Assembly: GCA_944390125.1 (NCBI GenBank)
Contig: CALXOX010000004.1
Location: forward strand, 23,875 to 87,874
From: an uncultured Alphaproteobacteria bacterium
Lineage (GTDB): Bacteria > Pseudomonadota > Alphaproteobacteria > Rs-D84
Direction of reading: 5' to 3'
DNA: 64,000 nt
Made by a program: the position numbers and the translations under genes
Notes under the pieces: model-generated
Told to the model about the DNA's origin: nothing
What the model saw: only the letters and a program-made list of their open reading frames with translations
The model's database searches: none
Shown: positions 17,361-44,267 of the stretch, one piece after another
How the letters are laid out: each line of letters begins with the position of its first letter
How positions within the stretch are numbered: the first letter of the stretch is position 1

Positions 17361-19304
17361 ATGCATATTTCTACGATAAAAATTAAAAACTTTCGATTGT
17401 TAAAGGATTTTTCCATAAATCTTGAAAAAAATCTTTCTATAATTATTGGGAAAAATAATACAGGTAAAACGTCTTTTGTTCTGGCACTAGAAAAGTTTTT
17501 AAAAAATGGGAAAATAGATTTCTATGATATAAATACAGATTTTAAAAATTATTTAGCTACATTATTAAAAGATATGCTTTTGTTGAAGGAAGAGAATTTT
17601 AATGCCATTGGGGAACTTGGTATAATCCTGGAAATGGTGATAGAATATGATGATAAAGTAGATAGTTTAGAAAATTTATCAAAATTTATTACTGATTTGG
17701 AGCCCGACAATAAAAAAGTATTTTTTAAATTTAAGTTTTTGTTAAATTATGACAATTATAAAAATATGCACAAAAAATTACAATCGGTTACAGAAAATGA
17801 AAAAAAAGAAAGTTATATAAAAAAACACCTTGCTGAAAATCTGATATGGAAGGCGTATTCATATTATGAAGAAGAACGTTTTGAAAATATACATGAAATT
17901 AAGCCACATGATGCAGATTTAAATAAACTTTTAAATATTGAAATAATAAGGGCTCCAAGAGATTTTGTAAAGAATAACTCTAAAACCCTTTCTGTTCAAT
18001 CAAGTGATTACTTTAGAGCTCGGTCAAAAAATGATTCAAAAGTCTTGGACCGGTTTTCAGAAGCCTTAGAAAAAATAGATAAAGATTTAAAAACAGAATA
18101 CGACGTCATTTATAAAGATGTTTTTGATAGCATAAAAAAATATATTGATGATGATTCTATAAATCCGGAGGTAATACCTGAACTAAATGCCGAAAAAATC
18201 ATTGGGGATAACACAATAGTAAAATATCAAAACGATTTACCGGAGTATAATAATGGGCTAGGATATTTAAACCTGATTTCTATATTGCTTGAAATACACT
18301 TATATGTAGAAAAATTAAGCGGTAAGGCTTCAAAACCGGACATATTTTTGTTGTTTATTGAAGAGCCTGAGGCTCATACGCACCCTCAGATGCAATATAT
18401 TTTTATTAAAAACATCAAAGAATTGTTAAAAAAACAATCTTTTCAAAGTATTATATCTTCACATTCTTCGCATATCGTTTCTAATTCAGATTTTGAAGAT
18501 ATTAAATATTTTTATTTTAACCATAAATTAAAAACGGTAGACTCAAAAAATATTTCTGAGCTTATGTCAAAAATTGGGAAAGATCATTTTGCTTTTTTAA
18601 AGAAATATCTTACTTTGAATTCAGCAGAATTGTTTTTTGCAAACAAAGCAATTTTTATCGAAGGTGATAGCGAAAGGATACTTTTACCAAGTTTTATTAA
18701 AAAAATTAGCGCTGAACCAGATTTTTCTAATGCAATATATCAAAATATAAGCATTATTCATGTTGGTGGTGCTTATGCGCATATATTCAAACCATTAATG
18801 AATTTTTTTGATATAAAATGTCTTATAATTACAGATATAGATTATAAATTGACAGCAATTAAAAGCAAAGATGCTACCGGGAAAACAAAAATTACTGGTT
18901 ATAAATCTAATTTGTCAAAAGGCATTACAAATCAAACTATCAAAAAGCTAATCCGTAAAAATTCATCAACTGCTGAAGATCTTATAGAAAAGGCAGGAGA
19001 AGAGATTCAAAAAAACAAAATATATATAGCTTTCCAAAAAGATGGGACAAGGTCTTTCGAAGATTCTTTTTTTGAAAAAAATAGAGAGTTTATATTAGAC
19101 AATAAAAACGGTTTTAAATCTTTAAAAAAACGGTCTAAAATTGATACATATAAGGATAAATTTGGTTTCTCAGATAATTTTATTTCGAAAAAAACCGATT
19201 TTGCTACAGATATTTTATATCATTCAAATTCAGATTTAACTAATTGGGATATTCCTGATTATATTTCGAACGGATTAAAGTGGTTGTTAAAGGACGATAA
19301 ATAA
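17361..19304 (+). CDS. gajA: Gabija GajA: OLD-family ATPase + TOPRIM endonuclease
   Basis: Walker A IIGKNNTGKTS near N-terminus, Walker B/Q-loop region LLFIEEPEAHTHPQMQ, TOPRIM motif AIFIEGDSERILLP; 647 aa; directly followed by a UvrD-like helicase gene. Confidence 0.8.
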   Translation: MHISTIKIKNFRLLKDFSINLEKNLSIIIGKNNTGKTSFVLALEKFLKNGKIDFYDINTDFKNYLATLLKDMLLLKEENFNAIGELGIILEMVIEYDDKVDSLENLSKFITDLEPDNKKVFFKFKFLLNYDNYKNMHKKLQSVTENEKKESYIKKHLAENLIWKAYSYYEEERFENIHEIKPHDADLNKLLNIEIIRAPRDFVKNNSKTLSVQSSDYFRARSKNDSKVLDRFSEALEKIDKDLKTEYDVIYKDVFDSIKKYIDDDSINPEVIPELNAEKIIGDNTIVKYQNDLPEYNNGLGYLNLISILLEIHLYVEKLSGKASKPDIFLLFIEEPEAHTHPQMQYIFIKNIKELLKKQSFQSIISSHSSHIVSNSDFEDIKYFYFNHKLKTVDSKNISELMSKIGKDHFAFLKKYLTLNSAELFFANKAIFIEGDSERILLPSFIKKISAEPDFSNAIYQNISIIHVGGAYAHIFKPLMNFFDIKCLIITDIDYKLTAIKSKDATGKTKITGYKSNLSKGITNQTIKKLIRKNSSTAEDLIEKAGEEIQKNKIYIAFQKDGTRSFEDSFFEKNREFILDNKNGFKSLKKRSKIDTYKDKFGFSDNFISKKTDFATDILYHSNSDLTNWDIPDYISNGLKWLLKDDK

Positions 19305-19305
19305 T

Positions 19306-20871
19306 ATGCCAACAATTGTACAACAAATAGAGTCTGCCCTAGAAAATAACAAAAGTTTTGTGCTATCTGGCGGTGCTGGTAGTGGAAAAACGCATTCTCT
19401 AAAAGAAGTTATAAATTCAATATACGGCAGTAACCCCAATGCTAAAATTGCTTGTATCACTTTTACAGAGGTGGCTTCTAATGAAATCGCTGAACGATGC
19501 AAAAATACTGATAGGAATCTTTGGGTTTCGACTATTCATAAATTCTTATGGGAAAACATTAAAAATTACAAACCCCAGTTAAAAAAAGAACTTATAGAAC
19601 TTATAAAAGCAGATAAAATATCGTACCACGATGACAACGACATAGAAGAAGTATTAAAAGATAAAGTCGTTGATTACGGAATAAGCAGAAAAATATCAGA
19701 AGGTTTAATTTGGCATGATGATTTATTGCTTATAGCAAAAGAAATGTTTGCTAAATATAAACTATTAAACAAAATTTTTTCTGATAAGTATGACTACGTT
19801 TTTATTGACGAGTATCAAGATACAAGCAAAGATGTTATCGAAATATTTATCAACATGATAAAATCTAATATAAGGACAAAATTTGGCTTTTTTGGTGATT
19901 CTATGCAGGCTATTTATGAAACAGGTATAGGTAGCCTGACAGAATACGTACAAGATAACACGATTACAGAGATAAAGAAAGCGGATAATTATAGATGTTC
20001 TGTAGCAGTAATAGAACTTTGCAATAAAATAAGGAACGATGGGATTATACAAAAGCCGTCAAACATAGAAAACGGCGAGATAAAAAACAAGCCAGGTTGT
20101 GCAGTTTTTATTTATAGTGATAATGACTTAAATGCGTTTGAGCAATCTGATTTATACAACGAAATTTTTGAAAATGTATCGCCAGATAAGGAGTTGTACT
20201 TAACATATAAATTAATTTCACAGAAACATAATTTTATTGATTTGTTAAATGCTTATATAGAAGCATATGGTAGTCATGGTAGAGAAAAACTGATGGGAGA
20301 AAATAAGGACGATATAGCAAAGTTCCTAAATCGTACGGCAGAATTAATATATTTATATAAATCTGGTAGATATAATGAATTTATACAGAAAACTTCATTT
20401 GACTTAAAATCGCATTCTTTCAAATTAGAGTTACGAAACGCCATTGAAACCGCCCTTTCCGAAAAAGATATCGAATGGACTGTTAATTTTATGGCAGAAA
20501 AGAAACTTTTGATTCCTAATGATAATCTTAAAGAAAATATCGCACTTTGGAACAAAGTAAAAACAATCAACTTTGAACAAGCTATGAACGTATATAATTT
20601 AGAAACTGATCATACCCCATATTCTACACAACATGGGGTAAAAGGTGCTGAATTTAATAATGTACTTGTAGTTTTAGATAACGGGAAGTGGTTTAAATAT
20701 AATTTTAATAAACTTTTTTCTCCTGAACCGGCTTTATTAACATTAAAGCTTTTCTATGTGTGTATATCAAGAGCAAAGAATAACTTAGCTGTATTTATGC
20801 AAAAACCCGACAAACAGGTTTTATTAAAGGCTATAGAATGGTTCGGAGAAGAAAATGTTAAAAAAGTTTAA
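19306..20871 (+). CDS. gajB: Gabija GajB: UvrD/Rep-like SF1 helicase
   Basis: Walker A SGGAGSGKTHS, motif II FIDEYQDTS; starts 2 nt after the gajA stop; 521 aa. Confidence 0.75.
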   Translation: MPTIVQQIESALENNKSFVLSGGAGSGKTHSLKEVINSIYGSNPNAKIACITFTEVASNEIAERCKNTDRNLWVSTIHKFLWENIKNYKPQLKKELIELIKADKISYHDDNDIEEVLKDKVVDYGISRKISEGLIWHDDLLLIAKEMFAKYKLLNKIFSDKYDYVFIDEYQDTSKDVIEIFINMIKSNIRTKFGFFGDSMQAIYETGIGSLTEYVQDNTITEIKKADNYRCSVAVIELCNKIRNDGIIQKPSNIENGEIKNKPGCAVFIYSDNDLNAFEQSDLYNEIFENVSPDKELYLTYKLISQKHNFIDLLNAYIEAYGSHGREKLMGENKDDIAKFLNRTAELIYLYKSGRYNEFIQKTSFDLKSHSFKLELRNAIETALSEKDIEWTVNFMAEKKLLIPNDNLKENIALWNKVKTINFEQAMNVYNLETDHTPYSTQHGVKGAEFNNVLVVLDNGKWFKYNFNKLFSPEPALLTLKLFYVCISRAKNNLAVFMQKPDKQVLLKAIEWFGEENVKKV

Positions 20872-24306: not shown

Positions 24307-25245
24307 TTATTTACGGAACAGCAAGCTAATGAGTCGTTTTACAGGAGATGGTTGCTTTTTGTGTTCAACTTTACAAATATTTTTTTGCATGTATTCATTA
24401 AAAAAGTTTGTGTAAGTTAGATATCGAAACCATATATTTGATTTAGGAGGATTTATAGGATCGTACCAAGGCTTGCCCCAAGTAGTCCAAGTAACATAAT
24501 GTATTTGTATTGGCTCTTTCAGGGCTTCTTGGTGCTCTTGTTCTGTTGAACAATAGACATATTTATCAAAAGTCCATTCCTGTACTGCATACCAAGTCAC
24601 TAACGTCATGTTTCTTGGGTGCAGAAGTTTTATGTTTGGATAACTAACAATATTTAATATCTCTTGGTCGGGCAATTTCAGATAACTATGATATTGTTTA
24701 AGAAAACTCAGATATTTATAAGGCATGTCGTCTTTACGCATTTTATCTAGGTTGTATATCATATAACCCGCACCACAAATAAAGTGCATGTTTTTGTCTG
24801 TAATATCGGTTGAAAATGGTTTGTCTGTAGGTAGGGCCGCTTGTTTTACACCAGCAAAATACTCATCAGACGTAAATGCAATGAACTCCTTTGATATGTC
24901 GCCAGAAAAGACAACATCTACATCAGTTACAATCATTCGTTTAAAATTCTGGAATATATCTGCAACAAGACACTTGTAAACAATTTCTTTTGGCCAACCG
25001 GCGACATTATCAGGTATATCAAATTGCTTATCAATGTCGTCCATCGGTATAAATTTTATAGACGCATTTTTAAATTCAAATACCAACTTGGTCAGTTTGT
25101 TTTTGTGTTCTTCCGATAAATTTGTCTGCAAAACAAATAGTTGATATTGATGTTCTTTTGATGCATTAGCCAATAAAGAATAAATAGCAACAGATGCCGG
25201 AATTGAGTAATTATCATTAAACATCATCGCAATCGGAATGATCAT
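24307..25245 (-). CDS. Glycosyltransferase family 8-like (LPS/capsule glycosyltransferase)
   Basis: N-terminal IPIAMMFNDNY..., DxD-like TDVDVV; last gene of a four-gene operon, 4-nt overlap with the upstream gene. Confidence 0.45.
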   Translation of the reverse strand: MIIPIAMMFNDNYSIPASVAIYSLLANASKEHQYQLFVLQTNLSEEHKNKLTKLVFEFKNASIKFIPMDDIDKQFDIPDNVAGWPKEIVYKCLVADIFQNFKRMIVTDVDVVFSGDISKEFIAFTSDEYFAGVKQAALPTDKPFSTDITDKNMHFICGAGYMIYNLDKMRKDDMPYKYLSFLKQYHSYLKLPDQEILNIVSYPNIKLLHPRNMTLVTWYAVQEWTFDKYVYCSTEQEHQEALKEPIQIHYVTWTTWGKPWYDPINPPKSNIWFRYLTYTNFFNEYMQKNICKVEHKKQPSPVKRLISLLFRK

Positions 25246-26357
25246 TTCAAAAACTCCTCAATAATATCAACTATTCTGTTGGCAGCTTTACCGTCTCCAT
25301 ATGGATTATTGTGTCCGTCTAAGCGTGTCTCTGAAATATCCCGAGATAATATAAAGCGTGCTTCAGAAAGAATTTTATCATAATCTGCGCCGACCAATCT
25401 AGCAAAACCAGCCTTTATGCCCTCTGTACGTTCTGTTTCGTATCGCATTACTAAAACTGGAGCGCCAAACGTAGGGGCTTCTTCTTGAATTCCGCCTGAA
25501 TCTGTCAATACCAATTTTGCATGTTTCATTATAGTTACTAATTCTGGGTAGTCTAGAGGCTCTGTAAGTATAACATTAGACACTAATGCCAATTCAGACT
25601 TTACTTTATCTCTTACGTTAGGGTTAGGATGAACTGGCAATATAAACTGGTGGTCTGAGAAATCGTTTGCTAGTTGTTTTATTGCTTTAAGGATAGAGTC
25701 AAGTCTTTCACCATGATTTTCACGTCTGTGCACTGTAATCAGAGTAAGTTTGTCGTTTAGAACTATATTGCGATCAGAAATAGACTTTTCTGCTTTTAGT
25801 ATAACGTCATCGGATAAGCAACTTAAAGCGTCTATTACGGTATTCCCGGTCATATGTATTTTTTCTGCATTTATGTTCTCTTTTATTAAAGATGTATATG
25901 CCAACTCTGTTGGTGCGAAATGTAAACTTGCAATTCTAGCAGTCATTTGACGCATAGCTTCTTCTGGGAACGGTTCAAATAAATCGTAAGAACGTAATCC
26001 TGCCTCTACATGGAAAAGCGGTACTTTGTTATAAAAAGATACTAGTGCACCACAAAATACTGTCATAGTGTCTCCTTGAACTATTGTGGCATCAAATTTA
26101 TTCTGTTCGAATATAGAGCTAAGTGCAGTTAAAATGCGCGATTGAACGCCAGCCAAAGTCTGATTCGGCTGCATAACGTCCAATTTAAAATCCGGAATTA
26201 TTCCAAAAAAAGACAATGTTTGATTTGACAGTTCTTTTTGCTGCTCCGTATTGCACACGTACACGTTGCAATCATTTCTTTTTTTCAATTCCAAAATTAC
26301 GGGTGCCAATTTTATAGCTTCTGGCCTTGTCCCTAAAATTACAATTATATTTTTCAT
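25242..26357 (-). CDS. wecB: UDP-N-acetylglucosamine 2-epimerase (non-hydrolysing, WecB/NeuC-like)
   Basis: MKNIIVILGTRPEAIKLAPV..., conserved HVEAGLRS and DSGG motifs; ATGA start/stop overlap with the upstream GT gene (start set at 26357). Confidence 0.75.
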   Translation of the reverse strand: MKNIIVILGTRPEAIKLAPVILELKKRNDCNVYVCNTEQQKELSNQTLSFFGIIPDFKLDVMQPNQTLAGVQSRILTALSSIFEQNKFDATIVQGDTMTVFCGALVSFYNKVPLFHVEAGLRSYDLFEPFPEEAMRQMTARIASLHFAPTELAYTSLIKENINAEKIHMTGNTVIDALSCLSDDVILKAEKSISDRNIVLNDKLTLITVHRRENHGERLDSILKAIKQLANDFSDHQFILPVHPNPNVRDKVKSELALVSNVILTEPLDYPELVTIMKHAKLVLTDSGGIQEEAPTFGAPVLVMRYETERTEGIKAGFARLVGADYDKILSEARFILSRDISETRLDGHNNPYGDGKAANRIVDIIEEFLK

Positions 26358-27154
26358 TTTTTTCTCACAATTGCATATATACATTTTTGGGTTGTATGAA
26401 TTTTTATAAGAATCCGTTCGTTCGCATTCAAGGGAATAGAATTTGAATCCCTAATTTTTCTGAAACGTACAAGATACAAGTTACCTATCTTAAATTTATT
26501 TTTCCTTTTATAACCATCCAACCACGAACCATTAAAATGATGTATCGTATAGTTTTCTTTTCCTGTTTCTGGAGTACAGAAAAACCAAGATGGTTCAATT
26601 ACACCGTCGTTACCTAACAATAAGCGTTCGGAACCATTATAGGGTTGTTTTACGCCGTATTGTGCGAAAAACTCGGACACTCGTACTGTATTGGTTTTTA
26701 AATTTAATGAACCATCGGAATTTATAAAGTGTTCACCATCATAATCTGCTAACAAAGCAGATATAATTTTTCCATCAGGTTCTGAACCGACAAACGCAGT
26801 GAAGGGGAAACATTGACCTATAATGTTCTTTTCATAGCCAGATATAAATTTATTTTTACGAAATTTGTCTATGTTTGCAGTAACTTCTAAATCGGAATCG
26901 AAATAAAAACCACCAAATTTTTTCAGTGCGTATAAACGAATAAAATCAGAAACGAATGCCCATTTTTTCTGTTCGAAAGCTTCCTTTAAATAAGGATTTT
27001 TGGTAGATTTTATCACTTGCTCTGTTGCAGCGTTATCCCATTCTACTATTTCATAATCGGAGCAAAATTTTTTCCAACTATCAATACAACGAAGTATCAA
27101 TTCTGATTTTGGACTTGTACCAACCCAAACGAAGTGAATTCTTTTAGGTATCAT
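26354..27154 (-). CDS. Glycosyltransferase, GT32-like (Gly_transf_sug, DXD motif)
   Basis: IPKRIHFVWVG N-terminus and YFDSDLEV DxD motif. Confidence 0.5.
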   Translation of the reverse strand: MIPKRIHFVWVGTSPKSELILRCIDSWKKFCSDYEIVEWDNAATEQVIKSTKNPYLKEAFEQKKWAFVSDFIRLYALKKFGGFYFDSDLEVTANIDKFRKNKFISGYEKNIIGQCFPFTAFVGSEPDGKIISALLADYDGEHFINSDGSLNLKTNTVRVSEFFAQYGVKQPYNGSERLLLGNDGVIEPSWFFCTPETGKENYTIHHFNGSWLDGYKRKNKFKIGNLYLVRFRKIRDSNSIPLNANERILIKIHTTQKCIYAIVRKK

Positions 27155-27179
27155 GATGACGCTATCTCCTTTTATTATA

Positions 27180-28310
27180 CTAGTCTATCAATTTTAAAAT
27201 TTGGCTAGCTATGACATTTGCATCAAATCTTTTAAGTTCTTTTCTTGCGTTAGAAATGATTTCCTCTTTGTCTATTTTATTATTCCATACGTCTGACATA
27301 ATTTCCGCCAATTGTTCAACGTTTCCTGGTTTAAATAGCAGGCCGGCCTTGCCGTTTAGAGCAATTTCTTTTGGCCCATTAGGACAGTCAGAAGCTATAT
27401 TTAAAGTGCCGCAAGCGGAAGCCTCTATCATAACAGTCGGGAGCCCCTCACTATAGCTAGATAAAATTTGTGCTAGAGAATCGTGCATATAACCAAACGG
27501 TTCAGGAATTTTCCCCAAAAAGATGATATCATTTTTAGATAGTTGGGATGCAGCTAGGCTTTGAAAGAAGTTAGCATTTATGCCATCTCCAATTATTACA
27601 AGCTTGCATTCAGGTTGTTTTTCTTTACGCCAAAACACATCAAAAGCCTTTATTACCGTCCCTACATCTTTATCTTTGTCTAAACGAGATACACAAACAA
27701 AAAACGTATAGGGCAAACTACATCCAGCTGAGGCTTTTTTGGCTATATTCTCATAATCGGAAGGATTATATATTCTTATAAGTTTGTCTTTGATGTCTGG
27801 ATAATTATTAGCAATTTCTTCCAGACAGGCATCTGTTATGCATACAATTTTATCGTATTTGCAGAATCTAGAATATAGCTTACTCTCTGCAAAATAATTA
27901 TACGAAGAGTGTAGCCACGTAACGGTTTTCTTTTTTTTACAGTAAGAAAATTCCTTATAGAAAGATCCATTTTTATAATCAACTAATACGTCATGGTTGC
28001 GAAATTTGTACTTAAAAATTACGCGGCGGTATTTTTTATATAAACTGAAAAAGATTCTCCTAATATTCTCTACGACTGGGATATGAGTTTTAAACCTTTC
28101 GAATATTGGACCTGCCGGGAAACAGACATGTGTAATTATATTATTATGATTGTTAAACCACTCTATCCAAAAGGGCTCTGCTAAAGGCATGTGAAAACAC
28201 ACTGTAAGCTCAATGTTTGAATGTTTAGATAAAGAAATCAATGTTTGTCCTAATACGGTTTCGACACCGCCGACAATCATATCTGGAACACAGAAAACAA
28301 TTTTTTTCAT
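27180..28310 (-). CDS. Glycosyltransferase family 4 (GT-B)
   Basis: C-terminal EX7E region SYSEGLPTVMIEASACG. Confidence 0.6.
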   Translation of the reverse strand: MKKIVFCVPDMIVGGVETVLGQTLISLSKHSNIELTVCFHMPLAEPFWIEWFNNHNNIITHVCFPAGPIFERFKTHIPVVENIRRIFFSLYKKYRRVIFKYKFRNHDVLVDYKNGSFYKEFSYCKKKKTVTWLHSSYNYFAESKLYSRFCKYDKIVCITDACLEEIANNYPDIKDKLIRIYNPSDYENIAKKASAGCSLPYTFFVCVSRLDKDKDVGTVIKAFDVFWRKEKQPECKLVIIGDGINANFFQSLAASQLSKNDIIFLGKIPEPFGYMHDSLAQILSSYSEGLPTVMIEASACGTLNIASDCPNGPKEIALNGKAGLLFKPGNVEQLAEIMSDVWNNKIDKEEIISNARKELKRFDANVIASQILKLID

Positions 28311-31023: not shown

Positions 31024-31044
31024 AATGTGATTATAGCACAAAAA

Positions 31045-31062
31045 ATCCCCATTGAAGGGGAT
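31045..31062 (-). terminator. Rho-independent terminator after the giant surface-protein gene
   Basis: atccccattgaaggggat hairpin followed by a T-run on the minus strand. Confidence 0.45.
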
Positions 31063-31070
31063 TTTTATTT

Positions 31071-34000
31071 TTACCACATAGTGTATCCTTCTTTGCAGGT
31101 GCGTACACACTTCTTTCTGCTTTCGTCCCAAACCATAGTACCTGTTTCGTCTTCGTACTCTTCGGTTGGACAGATAGGAACACACTCGTTGTATTCAAGG
31201 TTGTACAATTCGCCTTGGTACATACAAGATGCTATTTCACATCCTTGTACGTAACTGCTAGCGGCCAGTTTGCCAAGAACACTGTATTTATTCTTGCATT
31301 CGCCACACTGTTTTGTGTGTTCATTGGTTTCTGACGGATCATTTGTATAACCAGGGTTACATAACGTTGCAACACATTCTCCCCACTTATTCAAGTCATG
31401 ATTCCATTCTTTGAAACCAGAACCATTTTCAATGTTGCATGGCTGAACATCGGACACGCATGCATTTGAAGCGACATGGTACCCATATTCGCATTCTTTT
31501 ATCATGCAAGAACCAAACGCATTCTTTTCGTTATCCCATGTTCTTTCAGCAGATACTGCATTAGGCGCTGTACATTCTTGTATATTACCTACGCAACGAT
31601 CGCCTTCTGGGTGATAGCCCAATACGCATTCCGCAATCTGGCATACACCACCATCCTTATAGGATAGAGCATATTCTCTGTCACATGGTACGCATACACC
31701 GTCTTTCATTTCATATCCAGCGTTGCAAGATTTTTCTACGCAAACTCCGTCAATGATGTCGCAAGGGTTACCTGTGTCTGATTGACCTTCAAATTCGCAG
31801 TCGTCCGGATAGAAAGCCTTATCGCTTACAGGAACAGCAGTTCCGTTTATTACATCGTAAGCTTCGCACTTCTTATAGCAACCACTTTCATCTTTGGCGC
31901 CAGGCAAAGACATAGACCATTCACCGTTACCCAAATCAGCACAGGACTTGATATCATCACCTGGATCTGTTGGGTCAACTGTGCCATCACAGAAGCTTCC
32001 TTCTGGGCATTCTACGCACTGACCGTTATCCAATGTGTAGCCTGCTTGGCAACGCTTGATTTCACAGGTATCAACACCCTGATAGTAATCACGACCTTCC
32101 ATTGCAGCAGCATTTGCAGCCAACTTACATTCTGCATAGCACATTGCAACGTCTGTTGTGCCAGCGTCAGATTCTGGATACAAGCCATCTGTCAAGGACG
32201 CACAGGTCTCTTGTGTCCCGCCGTCACATACGCTGCCAGCAGGGCAATTGATACATGTATTGCCAACCTGAGAGTAGCCCTCGTCGCAGCTTGTTACATT
32301 ACATGTCTGGCAATTAGACGTATAATTCTTACCGGATTCGTCATAATTACATGTCTGTTCACCAGTACCATTTTCAATGTCGCAGGCCATGTCTTCACGA
32401 TAGCACTCAGAGGCAGCTGCACTAGTTTCTGTTCTGGTTGTACCATCCATCGGACATTGATGACGTGCTGTATCCAACGCAGGACTGTAGTACCCTATGC
32501 CAGCGACCATACAGTCTGTCGGCAACAACAAGTGATCGTAGTAGTACCCAGCATCACAACTTGTCATTGTAGGCAAATCGCAACTTGAAGAGTATACTGC
32601 GCTATCGCCATCGCCGCTTGTGTAGTAGCACAAGTATTCACCAGTTCCATGTTCTGCTTCTGTATATGGCAGACCATCCTTGTAGCACAGTAATATGCTG
32701 TCTGATGTTGTGCCATTTGTTTTTCCTGAAGCAGGGCACGCATGACGTTCTGTATCACCAGAATCACTATAGTAATTCAGATCAACTTCTACGCAATCTG
32801 TGTCATCCGGACTTTCCAGCCAATATCCACCACGACAGCTGTTGATTGTTTTTGTGTCACAGTCACGTTGATATACTGCCAGAGTTCCTTCGCCACTTGA
32901 ATAGAAGCAACGTTGTGTACCAGAACCGTATGTAGCTTCGTATGCTAACCCCGTTTTGAAACATTGCTGAACAATAGTTGCTGTTTCTGTTTCAGTATTT
33001 CCACCATTTGGGCACTGTGTACGTTCTGTGCTGGCACCACCACTATAGTATCCATTACCAACTGGATCACAATCAGGGCTTTCTGCCTCTGCATTAGCCA
33101 AGTAATAACCAGCTTCGCAGGAGTTGATAACTTTATCTGTACAGCTAGCACTATATGACTTCTGGTCATCATCATAGTTACATGTTTGTGTACCAGAACC
33201 GTGAGATGCTGTATAAGTCAACTTCGTCTTGTAGCAGCTTGTTACAGCACTTGAGCCAGTTGTTGAAACCCCTTGTTCTGGACATGCATTCAAGCCTTCT
33301 GGAGAACCGCCGTCCGTCGCAAAGTTACCACCAGGGCAGTAGTAGTTAGCAGTACACGTGTCACATTGTGTACCTGTGCCTGTATAGTATGTGCCAGGTG
33401 CACAGTATGTTGTACCAGCTGACCAGCGAGCATAAATTGTTGCTGGACTTGTTGTAAAGGTCAATGCATTTTCAGAAGTTTGGAATATTCCATCTGAAGA
33501 TACGACTTGTGTTCCTCCACTCGTTGCACTGTAGTATCCAGCAAACTCGTAACCAGACTTTGTTGGAACTGTTGTCAACTCAGAGATTGAAGAATTAGCT
33601 TCTTCCGTTGTGAACCAACCTGTTGCATATTTTACATATACAGTTGCAGGTTCTCCATCAGTGTCTGCAGACCGGTGGTCTAACGTTACTTCATATACGT
33701 TTGGTGTCCAAACCGCATATAATGTCGTGTCTGTACCATTCGCAGATATATTCGCAGCAGTTGACTGACCTGCGTAGTAGCATGGACCACTACCGTTCTT
33801 ATCTGCACACCATTTTGCTTGCACTGTGTAACCTGGGCGAGTCAGTCCATCAACTGCAGGCAGTTCGCATGCACCGCTGTCAAATGTGCACTTTATGCTT
33901 GCTGCGACAGAACCTGTACCACCATTTTTATCTAATGTAATGGTATATTCATTCGCCGCACAAGAAGGACTCTCTGAGTTATTACCGTTTACCGTATAAC

Positions 34001-37000
34001 CCGTTTCGCATGTTACAGCGAAAGAACATGCTGCATATGAATCTGCACTGATACCATATACTGTATTCTGTTCTGCCGCTACAGATGTAGAGTGTGGTAC
34101 TTCTATAGCACATGTTTTATAGCAATCCTCATAGCTGTCAGCGTATTCAGAAGACTCTACTTTACCGCCCACAGGATCTTTTGGACATGCCGTTTGTACA
34201 ATTGCACCTTCAGGACTATAAAATCCAGTAGATGTACCACTGCACAAGAACGCATTCTGTTGTGCATACCAGTAACCGGCAATACAACTTTTTACTTCTA
34301 CAATACTGCATGCATCATACTTGCTTGTTGATGACTGGTAGAAGCACTTTGCAGATGCAACACCGTTTTGGAATCCATCATAGTCATCAAAGACTTTATA
34401 GCACTGTGTTATAGATACGGATCCCTTTTCTGATGTTCCGCCGTCTGGACATACGATAGGACTTGGCGATTCTGGTGGGCAGTAATACCCAGCAGGGCAC
34501 TCGTCTGCGTCACCCCATATACACGATGGGTTGGCGCTTGGACTATCTTTAGGAGTGTAGTTCTCATCACATTGAGCGCTATATTGACAGGCAGGGTAAG
34601 ATGAGCCACTATAGAAAGCATTTCCTGTTGATATACCCTGACCATTATCAATTTCTAGTGTTGGCGGGCATACCTTATAACATTCTTCAATTGAACCAGC
34701 ACCTGCAGCGGAAGTTCCGTCTTCTGGACAGGCTTTTTCAACACCGTTTTCACAGTATGATCCTGCAGGACATTGTTCAGGTTCGCCTTCATCTGTGCCG
34801 CCCGGACATGTTACACCGTCTTCGCACTGTGTACACATTGCGCCAGCTGTACCATTGCCAGAGGCAACATAACCTTCGTCACAGTTGGCATTATATGTAC
34901 ACGCAGGATACGCTGAACCCGTCCAGTTGACCTTGTTGGCTACGGCATTCGCTGTTCCGCCAGTAATAGGCTTATTAGAACAAGTCTTATAGCACTGTGT
35001 TACAGCTGTCGCGCCGGCATCAGATGTACCACCACCTGGACATGTAATAGGACCACTGCCGTCTTCTGGACAGTAAGAGCCCGCAGGACATGCCTCTGGA
35101 TCTGCCCATACACAAGATGGCGCTGCACTTGGACTATCCTTAGGTGTATAGTTTTCATCACATTCCGCACGATATTGACATGCAGGATATGAAGAGCCCT
35201 TATAGTAAGCATTCCCCTCAGATATGCCTTGACCATTTTCAATTTCTAACGTTGGGGCACAAGTTTTATAACATTCTTCAATTGAGCCGGCACCAGCAGC
35301 AGATGTACCACCAGCAGGGCACTCTTTTGCGATACCTTCTTCGCAATAAGAACCGACTGGACATTCTTCTGGTTCCTTGTCATCTGTACCGCCAGGGCAG
35401 TTCACACCGTCTTGGCACTTTGTACAAGTCGCACCAGCAGTTCCATTGTTCGATGCAGCATATCCAGCATTACAATTTGCAGTATAAGTACACGCAGGAT
35501 ACGAAGAACCATTATAATTTGACTTGCTAGAATCTGCTGTCAGCTTACCACCTGTTATAGTCTTACCAGAGCAGGTAATATAGCATTGATTCTGTGAGGT
35601 TGCACCTTGATCTGAGGTTCCAGAACCTGGACATGTTGTGCCGCAGCCTGCAGAACCAATGTTTGCAAAGCCTTCACCCGGGCAGAACATTCCAGCAGGG
35701 CAAGTTACATGATTTTCACCGTCATAATATTTACCTGCCTGACACTGAGTCGTCTGTTGTGACCAACAAGCATACATAGTTGTTGCGCCCGTAAAAGTCT
35801 TTTGGAAAACACCACTGGTGCATCCTGCAGAGTCGCCCCATCCAGTAAATGCATATCCCGTACGTTCCAGACCCGCTGATGGCAGGTTGCACATAACACC
35901 GTGTTTGCATTTTTGCACAGCGTCATTTGTGCCAGTTGAACCATTAATCGTTCCTGTACCACCATTCTTTTTCAAAGTGATAGAGTATTCATCAGGTTCA
36001 CAGCTGCTTTCGTCATCAGACAAGTGATAACCCGGATTACATTTGAAAGGTTCGTCATCTCCAGGACACGTTGCATTAGGTATGCACGCCGCACAACCGC
36101 TGCCGGATAAGTAATAATTTTCAGCACATGCAGTTGCAGCACATGTCTTAGTTCCACCTTTCGTTACAGTTCCGCTTACGTCTGTAGAGTGAGAAACGTC
36201 AGACGTTGTGCAGTTGCGGTAACATACAGAATTAGTTTGGCTTTGGCAGACATTGTATGTTCCCAAAGTAAACCCAGAAACACTACTACATGATACACTA
36301 CACGCCGAACAGCCAGAACCATTAGGGTATTGGTTAGACGGGCAGCTGCAAGTGCCGGCACCCGTAGGATTATTAGGACAGGCTGTCCATTGTGCTGTCA
36401 GGACCGTGTCGCCTGCAGTTGTGTAGGTATAGTCTGTGTCGGCGTTTGGATAAGAACCACCCCAACTTGAGAAGTTATAACCTGGACGTGTAAATAATGT
36501 CGCAGCTTTTGTCGTAAATTTGGCGTTATATGTAACACTTTGTGTCGCATCTGCTCCAACACCGCCACCATTCTTATAGGTAACTGTATATTCAGCAGGT
36601 TCACATGCTGTGCCAGAAGAATTCTTTACGTATCCAGCGTTACATGTAAATGAAAGAGTACATGTGGATTCTGCCGCGCTACAGGTACCATTGTAGTACT
36701 GTGTGCCAGACGTTGTCTGAGAACCATGAGTACACGTAGCGTGAGCAGGGCAAGATTGTTGTGTACATGCACGAGTGCAGTTCTTATAGCACTTTGTATT
36801 GCCACCTTCGTTCCCTGCACTGGATAGTTTAAACGAGCCGTCGCCAACAGTACTACATGCAGGACATGTTGTCCCGTTGTCGTAGTAGCCAGAATTTGCG
36901 GTTACAGAAACTACAGGCTTTTTACAATCTTTCGGTGTGCAATCTTCTGTTATTGTACCAGAATATTTTTTCTTGTAACTACAAGTTGTTGGAGTGCAAG

Positions 37001-37973
37001 TACCCCATGCTGTTACGCTTGCACAGTTTGCAGGTACGTCACCATTGACCTGTTTGCCAGACTTTTCAAAAATCCCAACGCAGTCAGCTTCGGCGCCAAC
37101 AGCGGCACCATCACGGTATTCAGCCGGGCATTGATTGCGCGTGCTTGTGCTTCCCTGAGATACTGTATGAGACTCTTTCCAATAACCTGTGCCAACGCTT
37201 GTACACTTAGCATTTGCTTCGGCAACGTATGTACCTGCCGAACATGTCGCTTTACATGATGTAATACCAGCATGGTTAGTGGCGGATGTTCCAGAATTTA
37301 CATAGCCATTTGCTGAATTACACGAAGAGCAAGATGCGGCACCTTTATCTGAATACTGATTGTTACCACAAACACCACAAGACGATGTGCTGCCGTAATT
37401 TACAATATGTCCTGCCTTGAATGTACCGGCGGCACACTCGGCTGTAGTTGTTGTGTTCTTTGTCGTTAAATATTTACCGGCATCAACCATTATATAACAT
37501 CCTGTATCTTTAGTCGCTTCACCAAGATTGGATGTGTAACCACTTGGACATGGGTTTTTACCTTGATCTACACTAGAGCTAAAACTAAACGTTCCGCCCC
37601 CACAATAAGAACCAGCTGGACACTTTGAACAAGTCTTGGAGTTCTGAGGAAGATATTCACCAGCTGCACAGGTTACACTTATCAAAGTACATGAGCCACC
37701 TGCTGTAGTTGTTGCACCGTTCGCTGTTCCGTCAACACTATAACCATTGTCGCATGTACATGTACTTACTGTTCCGCCTTCAGAACTTGAGTTCGCCCCA
37801 CAGGGGTTACAAGAATTACCAACGTCTTGTCCTCCAGACATGTAATAATCCTCGTTACAGGATGTGTACTTCTTGTATGAAGGACACGAATAGCCTTCAG
37901 CAAGCGCATTGCCCACAAATAAAGCTATAAATAAAGATGCAAAAATGCCTAGAAAACAGCGATTTTTTCCCAT
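31071..37973 (-). CDS. Giant secreted Cys-rich repeat protein (~2300 aa) combining Listeria-Bacteroides (InlB B-type) repeats with CPxGxYC Cys-rich modules; putative surface adhesin
   Basis: Start at MGKNRCFLGIFASLFIALFVGNALA (signal peptide; RBS agaggaag). Four Flg_new-like repeats (e.g. YTVTYKNGGGVG...TRPGYNFSSWGG, YSITLKKNGGTGT...RTGYAFTGWG, YTITLDKNGGTGS...RPGYTV, YEVTLDH...KSGYEFAGYY). Numerous CPAGSYC/CPGGT modules; Thr/Gly/Ser/Cys-rich throughout. Confidence 0.7.
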   Translation of the reverse strand: MGKNRCFLGIFASLFIALFVGNALAEGYSCPSYKKYTSCNEDYYMSGGQDVGNSCNPCGANSSSEGGTVSTCTCDNGYSVDGTANGATTTAGGSCTLISVTCAAGEYLPQNSKTCSKCPAGSYCGGGTFSFSSSVDQGKNPCPSGYTSNLGEATKDTGCYIMVDAGKYLTTKNTTTTAECAAGTFKAGHIVNYGSTSSCGVCGNNQYSDKGAASCSSCNSANGYVNSGTSATNHAGITSCKATCSAGTYVAEANAKCTSVGTGYWKESHTVSQGSTSTRNQCPAEYRDGAAVGAEADCVGIFEKSGKQVNGDVPANCASVTAWGTCTPTTCSYKKKYSGTITEDCTPKDCKKPVVSVTANSGYYDNGTTCPACSTVGDGSFKLSSAGNEGGNTKCYKNCTRACTQQSCPAHATCTHGSQTTSGTQYYNGTCSAAESTCTLSFTCNAGYVKNSSGTACEPAEYTVTYKNGGGVGADATQSVTYNAKFTTKAATLFTRPGYNFSSWGGSYPNADTDYTYTTAGDTVLTAQWTACPNNPTGAGTCSCPSNQYPNGSGCSACSVSCSSVSGFTLGTYNVCQSQTNSVCYRNCTTSDVSHSTDVSGTVTKGGTKTCAATACAENYYLSGSGCAACIPNATCPGDDEPFKCNPGYHLSDDESSCEPDEYSITLKKNGGTGTINGSTGTNDAVQKCKHGVMCNLPSAGLERTGYAFTGWGDSAGCTSGVFQKTFTGATTMYACWSQQTTQCQAGKYYDGENHVTCPAGMFCPGEGFANIGSAGCGTTCPGSGTSDQGATSQNQCYITCSGKTITGGKLTADSSKSNYNGSSYPACTYTANCNAGYAASNNGTAGATCTKCQDGVNCPGGTDDKEPEECPVGSYCEEGIAKECPAGGTSAAGAGSIEECYKTCAPTLEIENGQGISEGNAYYKGSSYPACQYRAECDENYTPKDSPSAAPSCVWADPEACPAGSYCPEDGSGPITCPGGGTSDAGATAVTQCYKTCSNKPITGGTANAVANKVNWTGSAYPACTYNANCDEGYVASGNGTAGAMCTQCEDGVTCPGGTDEGEPEQCPAGSYCENGVEKACPEDGTSAAGAGSIEECYKVCPPTLEIDNGQGISTGNAFYSGSSYPACQYSAQCDENYTPKDSPSANPSCIWGDADECPAGYYCPPESPSPIVCPDGGTSEKGSVSITQCYKVFDDYDGFQNGVASAKCFYQSSTSKYDACSIVEVKSCIAGYWYAQQNAFLCSGTSTGFYSPEGAIVQTACPKDPVGGKVESSEYADSYEDCYKTCAIEVPHSTSVAAEQNTVYGISADSYAACSFAVTCETGYTVNGNNSESPSCAANEYTITLDKNGGTGSVAASIKCTFDSGACELPAVDGLTRPGYTVQAKWCADKNGSGPCYYAGQSTAANISANGTDTTLYAVWTPNVYEVTLDHRSADTDGEPATVYVKYATGWFTTEEANSSISELTTVPTKSGYEFAGYYSATSGGTQVVSSDGIFQTSENALTFTTSPATIYARWSAGTTYCAPGTYYTGTGTQCDTCTANYYCPGGNFATDGGSPEGLNACPEQGVSTTGSSAVTSCYKTKLTYTASHGSGTQTCNYDDDQKSYSASCTDKVINSCEAGYYLANAEAESPDCDPVGNGYYSGGASTERTQCPNGGNTETETATIVQQCFKTGLAYEATYGSGTQRCFYSSGEGTLAVYQRDCDTKTINSCRGGYWLESPDDTDCVEVDLNYYSDSGDTERHACPASGKTNGTTSDSILLCYKDGLPYTEAEHGTGEYLCYYTSGDGDSAVYSSSCDLPTMTSCDAGYYYDHLLLPTDCMVAGIGYYSPALDTARHQCPMDGTTRTETSAAASECYREDMACDIENGTGEQTCNYDESGKNYTSNCQTCNVTSCDEGYSQVGNTCINCPAGSVCDGGTQETCASLTDGLYPESDAGTTDVAMCYAECKLAANAAAMEGRDYYQGVDTCEIKRCQAGYTLDNGQCVECPEGSFCDGTVDPTDPGDDIKSCADLGNGEWSMSLPGAKDESGCYKKCEAYDVINGTAVPVSDKAFYPDDCEFEGQSDTGNPCDIIDGVCVEKSCNAGYEMKDGVCVPCDREYALSYKDGGVCQIAECVLGYHPEGDRCVGNIQECTAPNAVSAERTWDNEKNAFGSCMIKECEYGYHVASNACVSDVQPCNIENGSGFKEWNHDLNKWGECVATLCNPGYTNDPSETNEHTKQCGECKNKYSVLGKLAASSYVQGCEIASCMYQGELYNLEYNECVPICPTEEYEDETGTMVWDESRKKCVRTCKEGYTMW
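34100..35700. repeat. Tandem 591-nt (197-aa) repeat, ~2.7 diverged copies, inside the giant gene
   Basis: Protein segments CPGGTDDKEPEECPVGSYC...QCEDGVT and CPGGTDEGEPEQCPAGSYC... are near-identical. Antisense ORFs at 34409..34651 and 35000..35242 are 591 nt apart and homologous. Confidence 0.65.
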
Positions 37974-38068
37974 GACTTCCTCTCTTTTGTATTTCATTCT
38001 AGAAAAAAAGCTATATATCACGCAAGAGAAAAAGTAAAAAAAATCACATTGGTATAAAAATAAAAAAA

Positions 38069-38093: not shown

Positions 38094-38170
38094 TGGTGGG
38101 TTAGGTAGGACTTGAACCCACGACCAAAGCGTTATGAGCGCTCCGCTCTAACCAACTGAGCTACTAACCC
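38094..38170 (-). tRNA. tRNA-Met (anticodon CAT); elongator type, could alternatively be tRNA-Ile2 (lysidine)
   Basis: 77 nt; GGGTTAG acceptor stem, anticodon loop CTCATAA, T-loop GTTCAAGTC, 3' CCA encoded. Confidence 0.8.
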
Positions 38171-43899: not shown

Positions 43900-44225
43900 A
43901 AAATAGAACCGGGTTTCTGTTGCCGGGCACCCGGAAAGCCCCGCAATAAGCTAAACGGACATAACTAACAATTGCCAATTATGCCCAACGCCATATTAGG
44001 CAGCCATTGCAAGGCGAACGTTGTCGTTCGCAGCGATTCTATCGCCATTCAGTTTTTATTCGGCTTTTAACGACGCCATGTCGGATTCAACCGATTTGCC
44101 TTTACTGCGCCTGTCGAAACTATGTCAGCCCCATGATTTTTTGTTGGTGGAGCTGTGGGGTACCGCCCCCCAGTCCAAAACGACTATTCCGCAACGGCTT
44201 CAGAATCATCATCGCTTTCACGACA
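43900..44225 (-). ncRNA. ssrA: tmRNA (ssrA), circularly permuted two-piece alphaproteobacterial type; tag peptide ANDNVRLAMAA
   Basis: Minus strand. Acceptor-piece 3' end ...GGGGGGCGGTACCCCACAGCTCCACCA (44134-44160), then coding piece starting GGGGCTG (pairs with CAGCTCC). Tag ORF GCG AAC GAC AAC GTT CGC CTT GCA ATG GCT GCC TAA at 44032..43997. Upstream TTGCAA-16-TATAAT promoter (44232-44259); terminator-like hairpin + T-run near 43900-43935. Ends approximate. Confidence 0.65.
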
Positions 44226-44267
44226 GAAATAATTATAATATTTATGGTGGCAATTGCAAGTTTTTAA

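What the first reader, a model, noticed from the sequence alone, without database searches (positions are those of the whole stretch)
31071..37973. ~2300-aa secreted chimeric surface protein: InlB B-type (Listeria-Bacteroides) repeats interleaved with Cys-rich modules and a 591-nt tandem repeat
The protein has a signal peptide and four Flg_new-like repeats with the hallmark NGG...R/KxGYxFxGW pattern. It carries dozens of CPxGxYC/CPGGT Cys-rich units resembling GCC2/GCC3 or VSP-like modules, more typical of eukaryotic or protist surface proteins than of bacterial ones. About 2.7 tandem copies of a 197-aa unit (34100-35700) are present; such repeats are prone to slipped-strand or recombinational length variation. 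This is a likely adhesin or antigenic-variation candidate. The extreme Cys content suggests an oxidising extracellular location.
Basis: partly seen in the sequence, partly recalled or inferred. Interest (0 to 1): 0.6.

Follow-up and report, generated by a model that had tools for sequence, protein, structure and literature searches.

The report
Giant cysteine-rich secreted protein of Enterousia
This is an intact 2,300-residue, signal-peptide-bearing, cysteine-packed modular protein. It is a conserved single-copy gene of small-genome gut alphaproteobacteria (Candidatus Enterousia) and most likely a long surface fibre for sticking to other cells, not a rapidly varying antigen.

Summary
The minus-strand ORF 37973..31071 encodes 2,300 aa with a Sec signal peptide, 183 Cys (8.0%), four Pfam Flg_new repeats and a 591-nt (197-aa) tandem duplication.

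The window is alphaproteobacterial (alpha-type tmRNA). Relatives are Candidatus Enterousia / Rs-D84 gut MAGs with genomes under 1 Mb. The gene sits in one conserved syntenic slot, intact, in at least 30 species-level genomes. Its GC3 equals that of its neighbours, so it is a vertically inherited core gene.

The Cys-rich modules miss every Pfam cut-off (PF07699 best 18.1 vs 23.1 bits). They are linked to Ephrin_rec_like/TNFR repeats only by profile-profile comparison (95%) and by weak fold matches. AlphaFold models are confident (pLDDT 93 and 90) and show strings of small beta-hairpin modules.

The repeat copies are old: 70% nt identity and a longest exact run of 20 nt. All 15 listed strain variants are 2,300-2,301 aa, and within-species dN/dS is 0.11. 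Slippage or antigenic variation is therefore not supported for this allele. A sister species does vary by exactly one 197-aa unit.

The variable N-terminal half and the conserved, always-terminal 350-aa C-terminal domain fit an adhesin-like fibre. The anchoring route and the ligand are unknown.

The parts
31071..37973 (-). Complete coding sequence: 2,300 aa plus TAA stop. The mature protein is about 237 kDa with pI 4.3.
   Evidence: Intact orthologues occur in 65 loci.
37976..37984 (-). Shine-Dalgarno region (GAGAGGAAG; AGGA core 4 nt before the ATG).
   Evidence: Read from the sequence.
37899..37973 (-). Sec-type signal peptide, aa 1-25, with an ALA|EG cleavage motif and no lipobox.
   Evidence: Sequence. 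It is the only segment with mean hydropathy above 1.6. It is conserved in homologues.
36591..37898 (-). N-terminal Cys-rich region, aa 26-461, with 39 Cys. It is the least conserved part among orthologues.
   Evidence: Per-100-aa identity scan. Cys count.
37497..37661 (-). Best, sub-threshold Ephrin_rec_like (PF07699) match, aa 105-159.
   Evidence: 18.1 bits, E 0.0024, profile positions 1-48 of 48, cut-off 23.1.
36390..36590 (-). Flg_new (Listeria-Bacteroides / InlB B-type) repeat 1, aa 462-528.
   Evidence: 30.1 bits.
35769..35987 (-). Flg_new repeat 2, aa 663-735.
   Evidence: 33.1 bits. TIGR02543 gives 22.8 bits.
35565..35741 (-). Leading TNFR/Ephrin-like module, aa 745-803. Part of it (aa 758-803) is the partial first copy of the tandem array.
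   Evidence: Self-BLAST: aa 758-900 vs 962-1097 are 64% identical. AF2 model.
34974..35564 (-). Tandem unit copy 1, aa 804-1000 (197 aa, 591 nt, 18 Cys). It consists of two sub-modules of about 104 and 93 aa.
   Evidence: AF2 pLDDT 93.4.
34383..34973 (-). Tandem unit copy 2, aa 1001-1197. It is 69% aa and 70% nt identical to copy 1.
34104..34382 (-). Degenerate partial third copy, aa 1198 to about 1290.
   Evidence: Self-BLAST: aa 905-1100 vs 1102-1286 are 45% identical, E 2e-51.
33714..33947 (-). Flg_new repeat 3, aa 1343-1420.
   Evidence: 25.6 bits.
33474..33701 (-). Flg_new repeat 4, aa 1425-1500. The Pfam core match covers aa 1457-1496.
   Evidence: 24.5 bits.
32124..33461 (-). Second series of about 93-aa Cys-rich repeats, aa 1505-1950 (roughly 4-5 copies, 32-42% identical).
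   Evidence: Self-BLAST. Collinearly conserved across the family.
31074..32123 (-). Family-defining conserved C-terminal Cys-rich domain, aa 1951-2300 (32 Cys, invariant terminal Trp).
   Evidence: Alignment A2. AF2 pLDDT 89.9. There are 259 50%-identity cluster representatives at E<=1e-30, and the domain ends at the protein's C-terminus in almost all listed hits. It occurs in 65 genome loci.
31041..31066 (-). Intrinsic-terminator-like hairpin (AAAAATCCCC-TTCAAT-GGGGATTTTT plus T) beginning 5 nt after the stop. The gene appears monocistronic.
   Evidence: The downstream HI0933-like gene has its own TGnTATAAT and an ATG at 31022, and is called separately in orthologous loci.

Best explanation
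The gene encodes a giant (about 237 kDa), Sec-exported, acidic, cysteine-rich modular protein. It is a vertically inherited, usually single-copy core gene of Candidatus Enterousia / order Rs-D84, which are gut alphaproteobacteria with genomes under 1 Mb.

The chain is a string of small all-beta modules. TNFR / ephrin-receptor-CRD-like units alternate with CCP-like beta-hairpin units. This string is interrupted by two pairs of Flg_new (InlB B-repeat) domains.

Most likely (inferred, not shown) it forms a long, protease-resistant extracellular fibre. On this reading the conserved C-terminal half, and especially the terminal 350-aa domain, is the cell-proximal, anchoring or assembly end. The variable, module-shuffled N-terminal half would be the distal part that binds another cell or a host or mucus surface. 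That would serve the partner-dependent lifestyle proposed for this lineage.

The 197-aa tandem duplication is an old module expansion that lengthens the fibre. It is not an active variation switch in this species.
For: Shown:
- The ORF is intact, with a Shine-Dalgarno site, a signal peptide and a terminator.
- There is no TM segment besides the signal peptide.
- The context is alphaproteobacterial: alpha_tmRNA at 154.9 bits.
- Homologues are named only 'InlB B-repeat-containing protein' and come from Enterousia / Alphaproteobacteria MAGs.
- The synteny Lon-TsaB-..-PIF1-GIANT-HI0933-hydrolase is kept in at least 30 loci. ORFs there are intact, 1,313-3,606 aa, with 5-9% Cys. One is a circular long-read genome, OZ007020.1.
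- GC3 is 0.33 against 0.26-0.33 for neighbours.
- dN/dS is 0.11.
- Nearly all Cys columns are invariant.
- AF2 pLDDT is 93.4 and 89.9, and the models are all beta hairpins.
- The best, non-significant fold matches are TNFR, Eph CRD, CCP strings, ELAPOR1 and the Entamoeba Gal/GalNAc lectin.
- hhalign gives 95.3% probability to an Ephrin_rec_like protein.
- The C-terminal half is collinearly conserved while the N-terminal half is variable.
- The C-terminal domain is at the extreme C-terminus in almost all listed relatives, with 259 at E<=1e-30.

From the literature: Rs-D84 lack a TCA cycle, respiration, flagella and standard transporters, and are inferred to be obligate symbionts or parasites that take metabolites from other cells (PMC12306168).
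Against: - No recognised outer-membrane translocation or anchoring device was found. There is no autotransporter barrel, LPXTG, lipobox, T9SS CTD or RTX signal, so surface exposure is inferred only.
- No ligand-binding domain of known specificity is present.
- No expression data were examined.
- The polarity (C-terminus proximal) is inferred from conservation alone.
- How about 91 disulfides would form in a non-respiring anaerobe is unexplained.
Confidence: 0.55

Rival explanations
1. It is a protective coat protein. A dense, disulfide-knotted, protease-resistant layer would cover the cell (functionally like Giardia VSPs or an S-layer) rather than act as a specific adhesin.
For: Very high Cys content, an acidic pI of 4.3 and no recognisable binding domain. 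The organism lives in a protease-rich gut lumen. The protein is a conserved core gene under purifying selection.
Against: There is usually one copy per genome, not a switching repertoire. No VSP-type Pfam hit, TM segment or CRGKA tail is present. Extensive gain and loss of N-terminal modules between species fits ligand adaptation better than a uniform coat. Abundance is unknown.
Confidence: 0.15
2. It is a contingency or antigenic-variation locus. The 591-nt tandem repeat would drive frequent recombinational or slipped-strand length changes that alter the exposed surface.
For: Copy number of the 197-aa unit ranges from about 0.75 to 3 among orthologues. In the sister cluster of P0002, strains are 2,575/2,576 or 2,377/2,378 aa. 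P0141 and P0002 are 96% identical and differ by one exact 197-aa indel. There the copies are 84-85% alike.
Against: In this window the copies are 70% identical at the nt level, 48% at third codon positions, with a longest exact run of 20 nt. The copies are positionally orthologous across species. All 15 listed conspecific variants are 2,300/2,301 aa, and all full-length listed members of the P0003 cluster are 2,266 aa. dN/dS is 0.11 overall and 0.04 in the repeat region. The 197-aa polymorphism in the sister species could in part reflect short-read repeat collapse.
Confidence: 0.05
3. It is a periplasmic or envelope-internal structural protein, exported by Sec but never crossing the outer membrane.
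For: There is a signal peptide but no identifiable outer-membrane secretion or anchoring domain. The periplasm is where disulfides are normally introduced in diderm bacteria (general knowledge).
Against: A chain of 2,275 residues built from dozens of small serial modules is expected to be far longer than a periplasm is wide (inference from models). Flg_new and Ephrin_rec_like/TNFR-type modules are otherwise found in extracellular proteins: NCBI's InlB B-repeat naming, P0070 with a pilin-type N-terminus, and PMC6993872.
Confidence: 0.1
4. It is a host-mimicry decoy. The TNFR-like and CCP-like modules would bind host cytokines, complement or ephrins. They may have been acquired from a eukaryote.
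For: The best structural neighbours are TNF receptors, complement-control proteins and Eph CRDs, including viral decoy receptors. The unit profile also hits an oomycete TNFR_c6 protein. Ephrin_rec_like is regarded as a eukaryotic invention, with bacterial cases attributed to HGT (PMC6993872).
Against: All fold matches are non-significant, and no Pfam TNFR_c6 or Sushi hit reaches threshold. GC3 matches the neighbours and synteny is conserved across at least 30 species, so there is no sign of recent transfer. The family occurs in guts of birds, mammals and what appear to be insects, which argues against a vertebrate-specific ligand.
Confidence: 0.05

Closest known systems
Bacterial 'InlB B-repeat-containing proteins' that combine Flg_new with Ephrin_rec_like repeats
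   Same: Giant secreted bacterial proteins that mix Flg_new (PF09479) domains with TNFR/Ephrin-type Cys-rich repeats. P0070 is a detectable homologue of the query. It scores PF07699 at E 4.5e-89, PF23091 and PF09479. NCBI gives relatives of the window protein the same generic name.
   Different: P0070 has a type-IV-pilin-like N-methyl N-terminus and clear Pfam Ephrin_rec_like hits. The window protein has a classical Sec signal. Its modules are too divergent for any Pfam cut-off. It also has CCP-like sub-modules and a clade-specific, always-terminal 350-aa C-terminal domain.
Listeria monocytogenes InlB (source of the B-repeat / Flg_new domain)
   Same: It shares the Flg_new repeat family (PF09479 at 67.2 bits; TIGR02543 at 22.8 bits). 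InlB is a surface invasion protein (general knowledge).
   Different: No LRR, inter-repeat or GW anchoring modules were detected here. Flg_new makes up only about 13% of the chain. The organism is an alphaproteobacterium, not a Gram-positive firmicute.
Eukaryotic Cys-rich ectodomains: Eph-receptor CRD / Ephrin_rec_like (ex-GCC2_GCC3), TNFR CRDs, ELAPOR1, CCP/sushi strings
   Same: CPxGxYC...CPxGxxS...C spacing. hhalign gives 95.3% probability to an Ephrin_rec_like protein. These proteins are the recurrent top Foldseek neighbours in the PDB and BFVD libraries.
   Different: Pfam thresholds are not reached. No Foldseek match reaches E<=1e-3. No signalling or TM parts are present. The context is bacterial and vertically inherited.
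Protist Cys-rich surface proteins (Giardia VSP/HCMP; Entamoeba Gal/GalNAc lectin heavy subunit)
   Same: Very Cys-rich extracellular proteins of anaerobic gut organisms. The Entamoeba lectin appears among the weak fold matches of the C-terminal domain (E 0.21).
   Different: No VSP Pfam hit, no C-terminal TM segment or conserved cytoplasmic tail, and few CxxC motifs (15). There is usually a single copy per genome, not a variant repertoire.
Giant surface proteins of other reduced-genome, partner-dependent bacteria (e.g. Rickettsia Sca autotransporters; recalled from general knowledge)
   Same: A very large secreted protein retained in a small genome of a partner-dependent alphaproteobacterium.
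   Different: There is no autotransporter beta-barrel. The C-terminal 350 aa model as Cys-rich hairpin modules.

Membership tests
Flg_new / Listeria-Bacteroides repeat (PF09479, TIGR02543) | Profile-HMM match above the curated cut-off | tested here: met
   PF09479 gives 67.2 bits against 27, in 4 stretches. Single repeats score 30.1, 33.1, 25.6 and 24.5 bits. TIGR02543 gives 22.8 against 20.95.
Flg_new / Listeria-Bacteroides repeat (PF09479, TIGR02543) | Characteristic fold of the B-repeat | not tested
   Neither structure job covered a Flg_new segment.
Ephrin_rec_like (PF07699, formerly GCC2_GCC3) | Profile-HMM match at or above Pfam's gathering score (23.1 bits) | tested here: not met
   There is no hit on the whole protein or on 300-aa slices. 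The best short-slice hit is 18.1 bits at aa 105-159. Only 2 of 25 unit homologues hit, at E 0.03.
Ephrin_rec_like (PF07699, formerly GCC2_GCC3) | Remote homology to bona fide members (profile-level) | tested here: met
   Profile A1 finds P0121 at E 8.9e-16. P0121 scores PF07699 at E 6.2e-34 in 7 stretches. hhalign gives probability 95.3% and E 2.2e-8 over 209 columns. Caveat: Cys/Gly-rich composition can inflate such scores.
Ephrin_rec_like (PF07699, formerly GCC2_GCC3) | Structural match to Eph-receptor CRD / TNFR-type modules | tested here: inconclusive
Sushi / CCP domain (PF00084) | HMM match, or significant fold match to CCP modules | tested here: inconclusive
   No Pfam hit. Top Foldseek hits are CCP strings: beta2-GPI at E 0.018, CD46 at 0.022 and viral complement-control proteins at 0.016-0.07. 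All are non-significant.
Giardia VSP-like variant surface proteins | VSP profile match, many CxxC motifs, C-terminal TM segment with conserved tail, multi-copy repertoire | tested here: not met
   No VSP hit. There are 15 CxxC motifs among 183 Cys. No TM segment lies outside the signal peptide. There is usually one locus per genome.
Repeat-driven phase- or length-variable adhesins (contingency loci) | Near-identical tandem repeats that offer long exact matches | tested here: not met
   70% nt identity and a longest exact run of 20 nt.
Repeat-driven phase- or length-variable adhesins (contingency loci) | Length polymorphism between strains of one species | tested here: not met
   The 15 listed members of the window's 90% cluster are 2,300 or 2,301 aa. 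A sister cluster does show a 197-aa polymorphism.
Autotransporter / T5SS adhesins | C-terminal beta-barrel translocator domain | tested here: not met
   No Pfam hit. The AF2 model of aa 1951-2300 shows short Cys-rich hairpin modules, with 32 Cys.

The most novel reading that the evidence does not exclude
This conserved, usually single-copy giant protein could be the attachment fibre that lets Enterousia / Rs-D84 cells dock onto a partner cell (bacterium, archaeon, protist or host epithelium). Docking would allow them to live as obligate episymbionts or parasites. On this reading the fibre is built from a previously unmodelled bacterial lineage of TNFR / ephrin-receptor-like and CCP-like disulfide modules. 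A new, always-terminal C-terminal domain would act as a novel anchoring or export module in a diderm that lacks known surface-display systems.
Probability: 0.3. Interest if true: 0.7.

Novelty: new variant of a known kind. Interest (0 to 1): 0.45.

Why it matters
Candidatus Enterousia / Rs-D84 are widespread, uncultured gut bacteria. Their genomes are under 1 Mb and they are thought to depend on other cells, but no interaction machinery has been described for them (PMC12306168).

A 6.9-kb gene, roughly 0.7% of such a genome, is kept intact in one syntenic slot across dozens of species under purifying selection. That makes it a prime candidate for the interaction machinery.

About 85% of the protein is invisible to Pfam. 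Its modules and its conserved C-terminal domain (259 cluster representatives at E<=1e-30) could be defined as new families. Doing so would improve annotation of hundreds of giant MAG proteins now labelled only 'InlB B-repeat-containing'.

The protein also raises a concrete biochemical question: how does a non-respiring anaerobe fold about 91 potential disulfides?

Tried and rejected
- TRF found nothing because the period exceeds 500; the repeat finder and self-BLAST were used instead. A first self-BLAST returned only the diagonal, and chunked masking solved this.
- An exact-sequence contig look-up of the window protein found nothing. Near-identical alleles were used instead.
- A profile search of PDB sequences with the unit alignment gave 0 hits at E<=1.
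- Foreign origin or island: rejected. GC3 equals the neighbours, so the 45% GC is compositional, and synteny is conserved. The adjacent tRNA-Met has its own promoter and terminator and is not an integration scar.
- Operon with the downstream HI0933-like flavoprotein: rejected, because a terminator hairpin and a separate promoter and start lie between them.
- A link to the downstream glycosyltransferase cluster: not conserved in orthologous loci.
- A paralogue elsewhere in the window: none.
- One literature search ('InlB B-repeat' / 'cysteine-rich') was uninformative. No paper in the library describes this protein family.
- Pfam scans of other window ORFs found no secretion-system or outer-membrane biogenesis genes that could explain export.
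Full report
**1. What is there**

The finding's coordinates hold a single ORF on the minus strand. The longest form runs 38021..31071 (GTG, 2,316 codons). The biologically sensible start is the ATG at 37973, for three reasons. Orthologues begin MGK.... An AGGA Shine-Dalgarno lies 4 nt upstream. And the product starts with a textbook Sec signal peptide, MGKNRCFLGIFASLFIALFVGNALA|EG.

That signal peptide is the only hydrophobic segment of the protein. The maximum 19-residue hydropathy elsewhere is 1.07. The product is 2,300 aa. The mature form is about 237 kDa with pI 4.3. It contains 183 Cys (8.0%) and is rich in G, T, S and A.

A GC-rich hairpin followed by a T-run starts 5 nt after the TAA stop (31066-31041). 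The downstream HI0933-like flavoprotein gene has its own extended -10 element and an ATG at 31022. The gene therefore looks monocistronic. The tRNA-Met immediately upstream has its own promoter-like site and terminator.

**2. Domain content**

Pfam finds only Flg_new (PF09479): 67.2 bits against a cut-off of 27, in four stretches. I placed them at aa 462-528, 663-735, 1343-1420 and 1457-1496. NCBIfam TIGR02543 also passes, at 22.8 against 20.95. This explains why NCBI names relatives 'InlB B-repeat-containing protein'.

- There is no hit on the whole protein.
- There is no hit on 300-aa slices even at E<=10.
- The best hit on short slices is 18.1 bits against 23.1, at aa 105-159.
- Across 25 homologous units, only 2 give E 0.03.

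About 85% of the protein is therefore outside any curated family. That is not 'dozens' in the strict sense.

**3. Repeats**

Direct repeats at 591-nt spacing are real. Chunked self-BLAST gives the following:
- aa 804-996 vs 1001-1193: 70% identity, E 3e-103.
- A leading partial copy: aa 758-900 vs 962-1097, 64%.
- A degenerate third copy: aa 905-1100 vs 1102-1286, 45%.

Each 197-aa unit is itself two sub-modules of about 104 and 93 aa (spacings of 312 and 279 nt). A second series of about 93-aa repeats fills aa 1524-1950.

The two full copies are old. In register they share 70% of nucleotides, but only 48% at third codon positions, and the longest exact run is 20 nt. Copy 1 is closer to copy 1 of other species (72-74%) than to its neighbouring copy (69%). 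The same holds for copy 2 (74-77%). The duplication therefore predates speciation and has not been homogenised.

**4. Who owns it**

The window carries an alpha-type permuted tmRNA at 154.9 bits. Homologues come from Candidatus Enterousia and 'uncultured Alphaproteobacteria' gut MAGs.

A scan of one genome per GTDB species with the C-terminal 350 aa returned 65 loci. The titled ones are nearly all Enterousia or Alphaproteobacteria from chicken, human, ruminant, horse and other guts. They include a circular 958,618-bp long-read genome.

In at least 30 of these loci the giant ORF lies in the same slot: Lon-TsaB-...-PIF1(opposite strand)-GIANT-HI0933-hydrolase. The ORF is uninterrupted there, 1,313-3,606 aa long, with 5-9% Cys.

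GC3 of the gene (0.33) equals that of its neighbours (0.26-0.33). Its higher overall GC (45% against about 36-40%) is therefore a consequence of amino-acid composition, not of foreign origin. Identity to the syntenic orthologue P0003 is 74%, inside the 60-87% range of the flanking genes.

According to PMC12306168, Rs-D84/Enterousia have genomes under 1 Mb. They lack a TCA cycle, respiration, flagella and standard transporters. The authors infer that they obtain metabolites from other cells, and they do not mention this protein.

**5. Structure**

AlphaFold2 was run with family alignments. For aa 745-1003 it gave pLDDT 93.4. For aa 1951-2300 it gave pLDDT 89.9. Both models are chains of short beta-hairpin modules, and pTM is low (0.68 and 0.48), as expected for elongated rods.

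Foldseek found no hit at E<=1e-3 in the PDB. The weak hits are thematically consistent:
- CCP/sushi strings: beta2-GPI, CD46, CD55.
- Eph-receptor ectodomains and CRDs.
- TNF-receptor family members and ELAPOR1.
- For the C-terminal domain: clostridial toxin repeat regions, ADAM22, the EphA2 CRD (probability 0.80-0.85 locally) and the Entamoeba Gal/GalNAc lectin.

An independent viral library gave the same themes: a poxvirus TNFR-like protein at E 1.1e-3, complement-control proteins, and a viral Ephrin_rec_like protein at probability 0.94.

At sequence level, a profile of the unit finds a bona fide 7x Ephrin_rec_like protein at E 9e-16, and also an oomycete TNFR_c6 protein. hhalign gives 95.3% probability.

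**6. Variation**

Across orthologues the N-terminal half is poorly conserved and differs by module gain and loss. From about aa 1300 onward the protein is collinear even with 3,600-aa relatives, and the last 100 aa are the most conserved, at 55-90% identity.

The 350-aa C-terminal domain has 259 relatives at E<=1e-30 among 50%-identity cluster representatives. It ends at the protein's C-terminus in almost all listed hits, which range from fragments of a few hundred aa to 4,444 aa. The terminal Trp and more than 30 Cys are invariant in the 19-sequence alignment.

The 197-aa unit occurs 0.75 to 3 times among orthologues. Strain-level data are decisive for this allele:
- All 15 listed members of the window's >=90% cluster are 2,300 aa, with one of 2,301.
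- All full-length listed members of the P0003 cluster are 2,266 aa.
- The P0002 cluster splits into 2,575/2,576 and 2,377/2,378 aa.
- P0141 and P0002 are 96% identical and differ by one exact 197-aa gap inside the array. In that species the copies are 84-85% alike.

Against a conspecific allele (L067-L070), the window gene shows 64 synonymous and 24 non-synonymous differences. That gives dN/dS 0.11 overall and 0.04 in the repeat region, with no change at all in the last 350 codons. The gene is under purifying selection. Its repeat is fixed in length in this species, although unequal recombination has changed copy number in the family's history.

**7. Interpretation**

Shown:
- The gene is intact, Sec-targeted, conserved and vertically inherited.
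- Cys positions are invariant.
- The models are confident, rod-like and modular.
- The N-terminal half is variable and the C-terminal half conserved.

Inferred:
- Extracellular location. The chain should be far too long for a periplasm, and its module types are extracellular elsewhere.
- Disulfide bonding.
- C-terminal anchoring or assembly.
- N-terminal ligand binding that serves a partner-dependent lifestyle.

Unknown: the export route across the outer membrane, the anchor, the ligand, and the source of oxidising power in a non-respiring anaerobe.

I put 0.55 on the adhesin-like fibre. The rivals are a protective coat (0.15), an envelope-internal protein (0.10), a repeat-driven variation locus (0.05) and a host-mimicry decoy (0.05).

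**8. Novelty**

Homologues already sit in databases under a generic name, so the sequence itself is not new. Giant modular adhesin-like proteins are a known kind, and Flg_new plus Ephrin-like combinations exist elsewhere.

The new points are as follows. The gene is a syntenic core gene of a reduced-genome, partner-dependent gut clade. Most of its modules and its always-terminal C-terminal domain are unmodelled. Its tandem repeat is shown to be evolutionarily old and fixed in this species. I rate it a new variant of a known kind, of moderate interest.

Noticed in passing
window 11629-16540 (+): Type I restriction-modification genes. An HsdR-like helicase (ResIII, HSDR_N) is followed by a fused methylase plus specificity protein (N6_Mtase + two Methylase_S stretches).
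   Followed up: no
window 17361-20871 (+): A Gabija-like defence pair: AAA_15 + OLD-type TOPRIM (GajA-like, 647 aa) followed by a UvrD-type helicase (GajB-like, 521 aa). It lies in the lowest-GC stretch of the window, 29% at 16-20 kb. Together with the R-M genes it looks like a defence island.
   Followed up: no
window 453-1889 (+); also L001 22227-22801: A terminase large-subunit-like ORF (Terminase_6C). A terminase next to a ParB/N6_N4 methylase also lies near the orthologous locus L001. These are possible prophage remnants in Enterousia genomes.
   Followed up: no
window 43905-44263 (-): Alphaproteobacterial two-piece (permuted) tmRNA at 154.9 bits. It fixes the taxonomic class of the window.
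   Followed up: partly
window 38094-38170 (-): tRNA-Met (CAT) directly upstream of the giant gene on the same strand. It has its own TTGCAA-16-TATAAT promoter-like site (38207-38180) and a terminator hairpin (38084-38068).
   Followed up: yes
window 24307-28310 (-): A glycosyltransferase cluster (GT8, UDP-GlcNAc 2-epimerase, DXD sugar-binding GT, GT1) downstream of the hydrolase gene. It is absent from the same position in orthologous loci L001 and L067, so it is strain- or species-variable.
   Followed up: partly
proteins P0088, P0096, P0099, P0100, P0105 (other contigs of 0.2-1.06 Mb): A sibling family shares the same signal peptide and first module (...NALAAGYSCPxYKKYTSC...) but ends in a different, Cys-poor C-terminus (...LYLRSxKKTTPSLNVKIGDxTYYGNM...SVHDDS). 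This suggests a common N-terminal cassette on different C-terminal domains.
   Followed up: partly
window gene vs L067: aa 461-745 against aa 1505-2300: Synonymous divergence between conspecific alleles is very uneven: dS is 0.09 around Flg_new 1-2, 0.02 in aa 1505-1950, and 0 in the last 350 codons. This hints at recombination between alleles or unusually strong constraint at the 3' end.
   Followed up: no
L055, L062, L063 (records titled Muribaculaceae), L008 (Clostridia), P0061 (Lachnospiraceae): A few family members sit in MAGs labelled as Bacteroidota or Firmicutes. L055 nonetheless keeps the Enterousia-type Lon-TsaB-PIF1-GIANT-HI0933 synteny on a 716,531-bp 'chromosome'. The labels therefore look like taxonomic mis-assignment or mis-binning.
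   Followed up: partly
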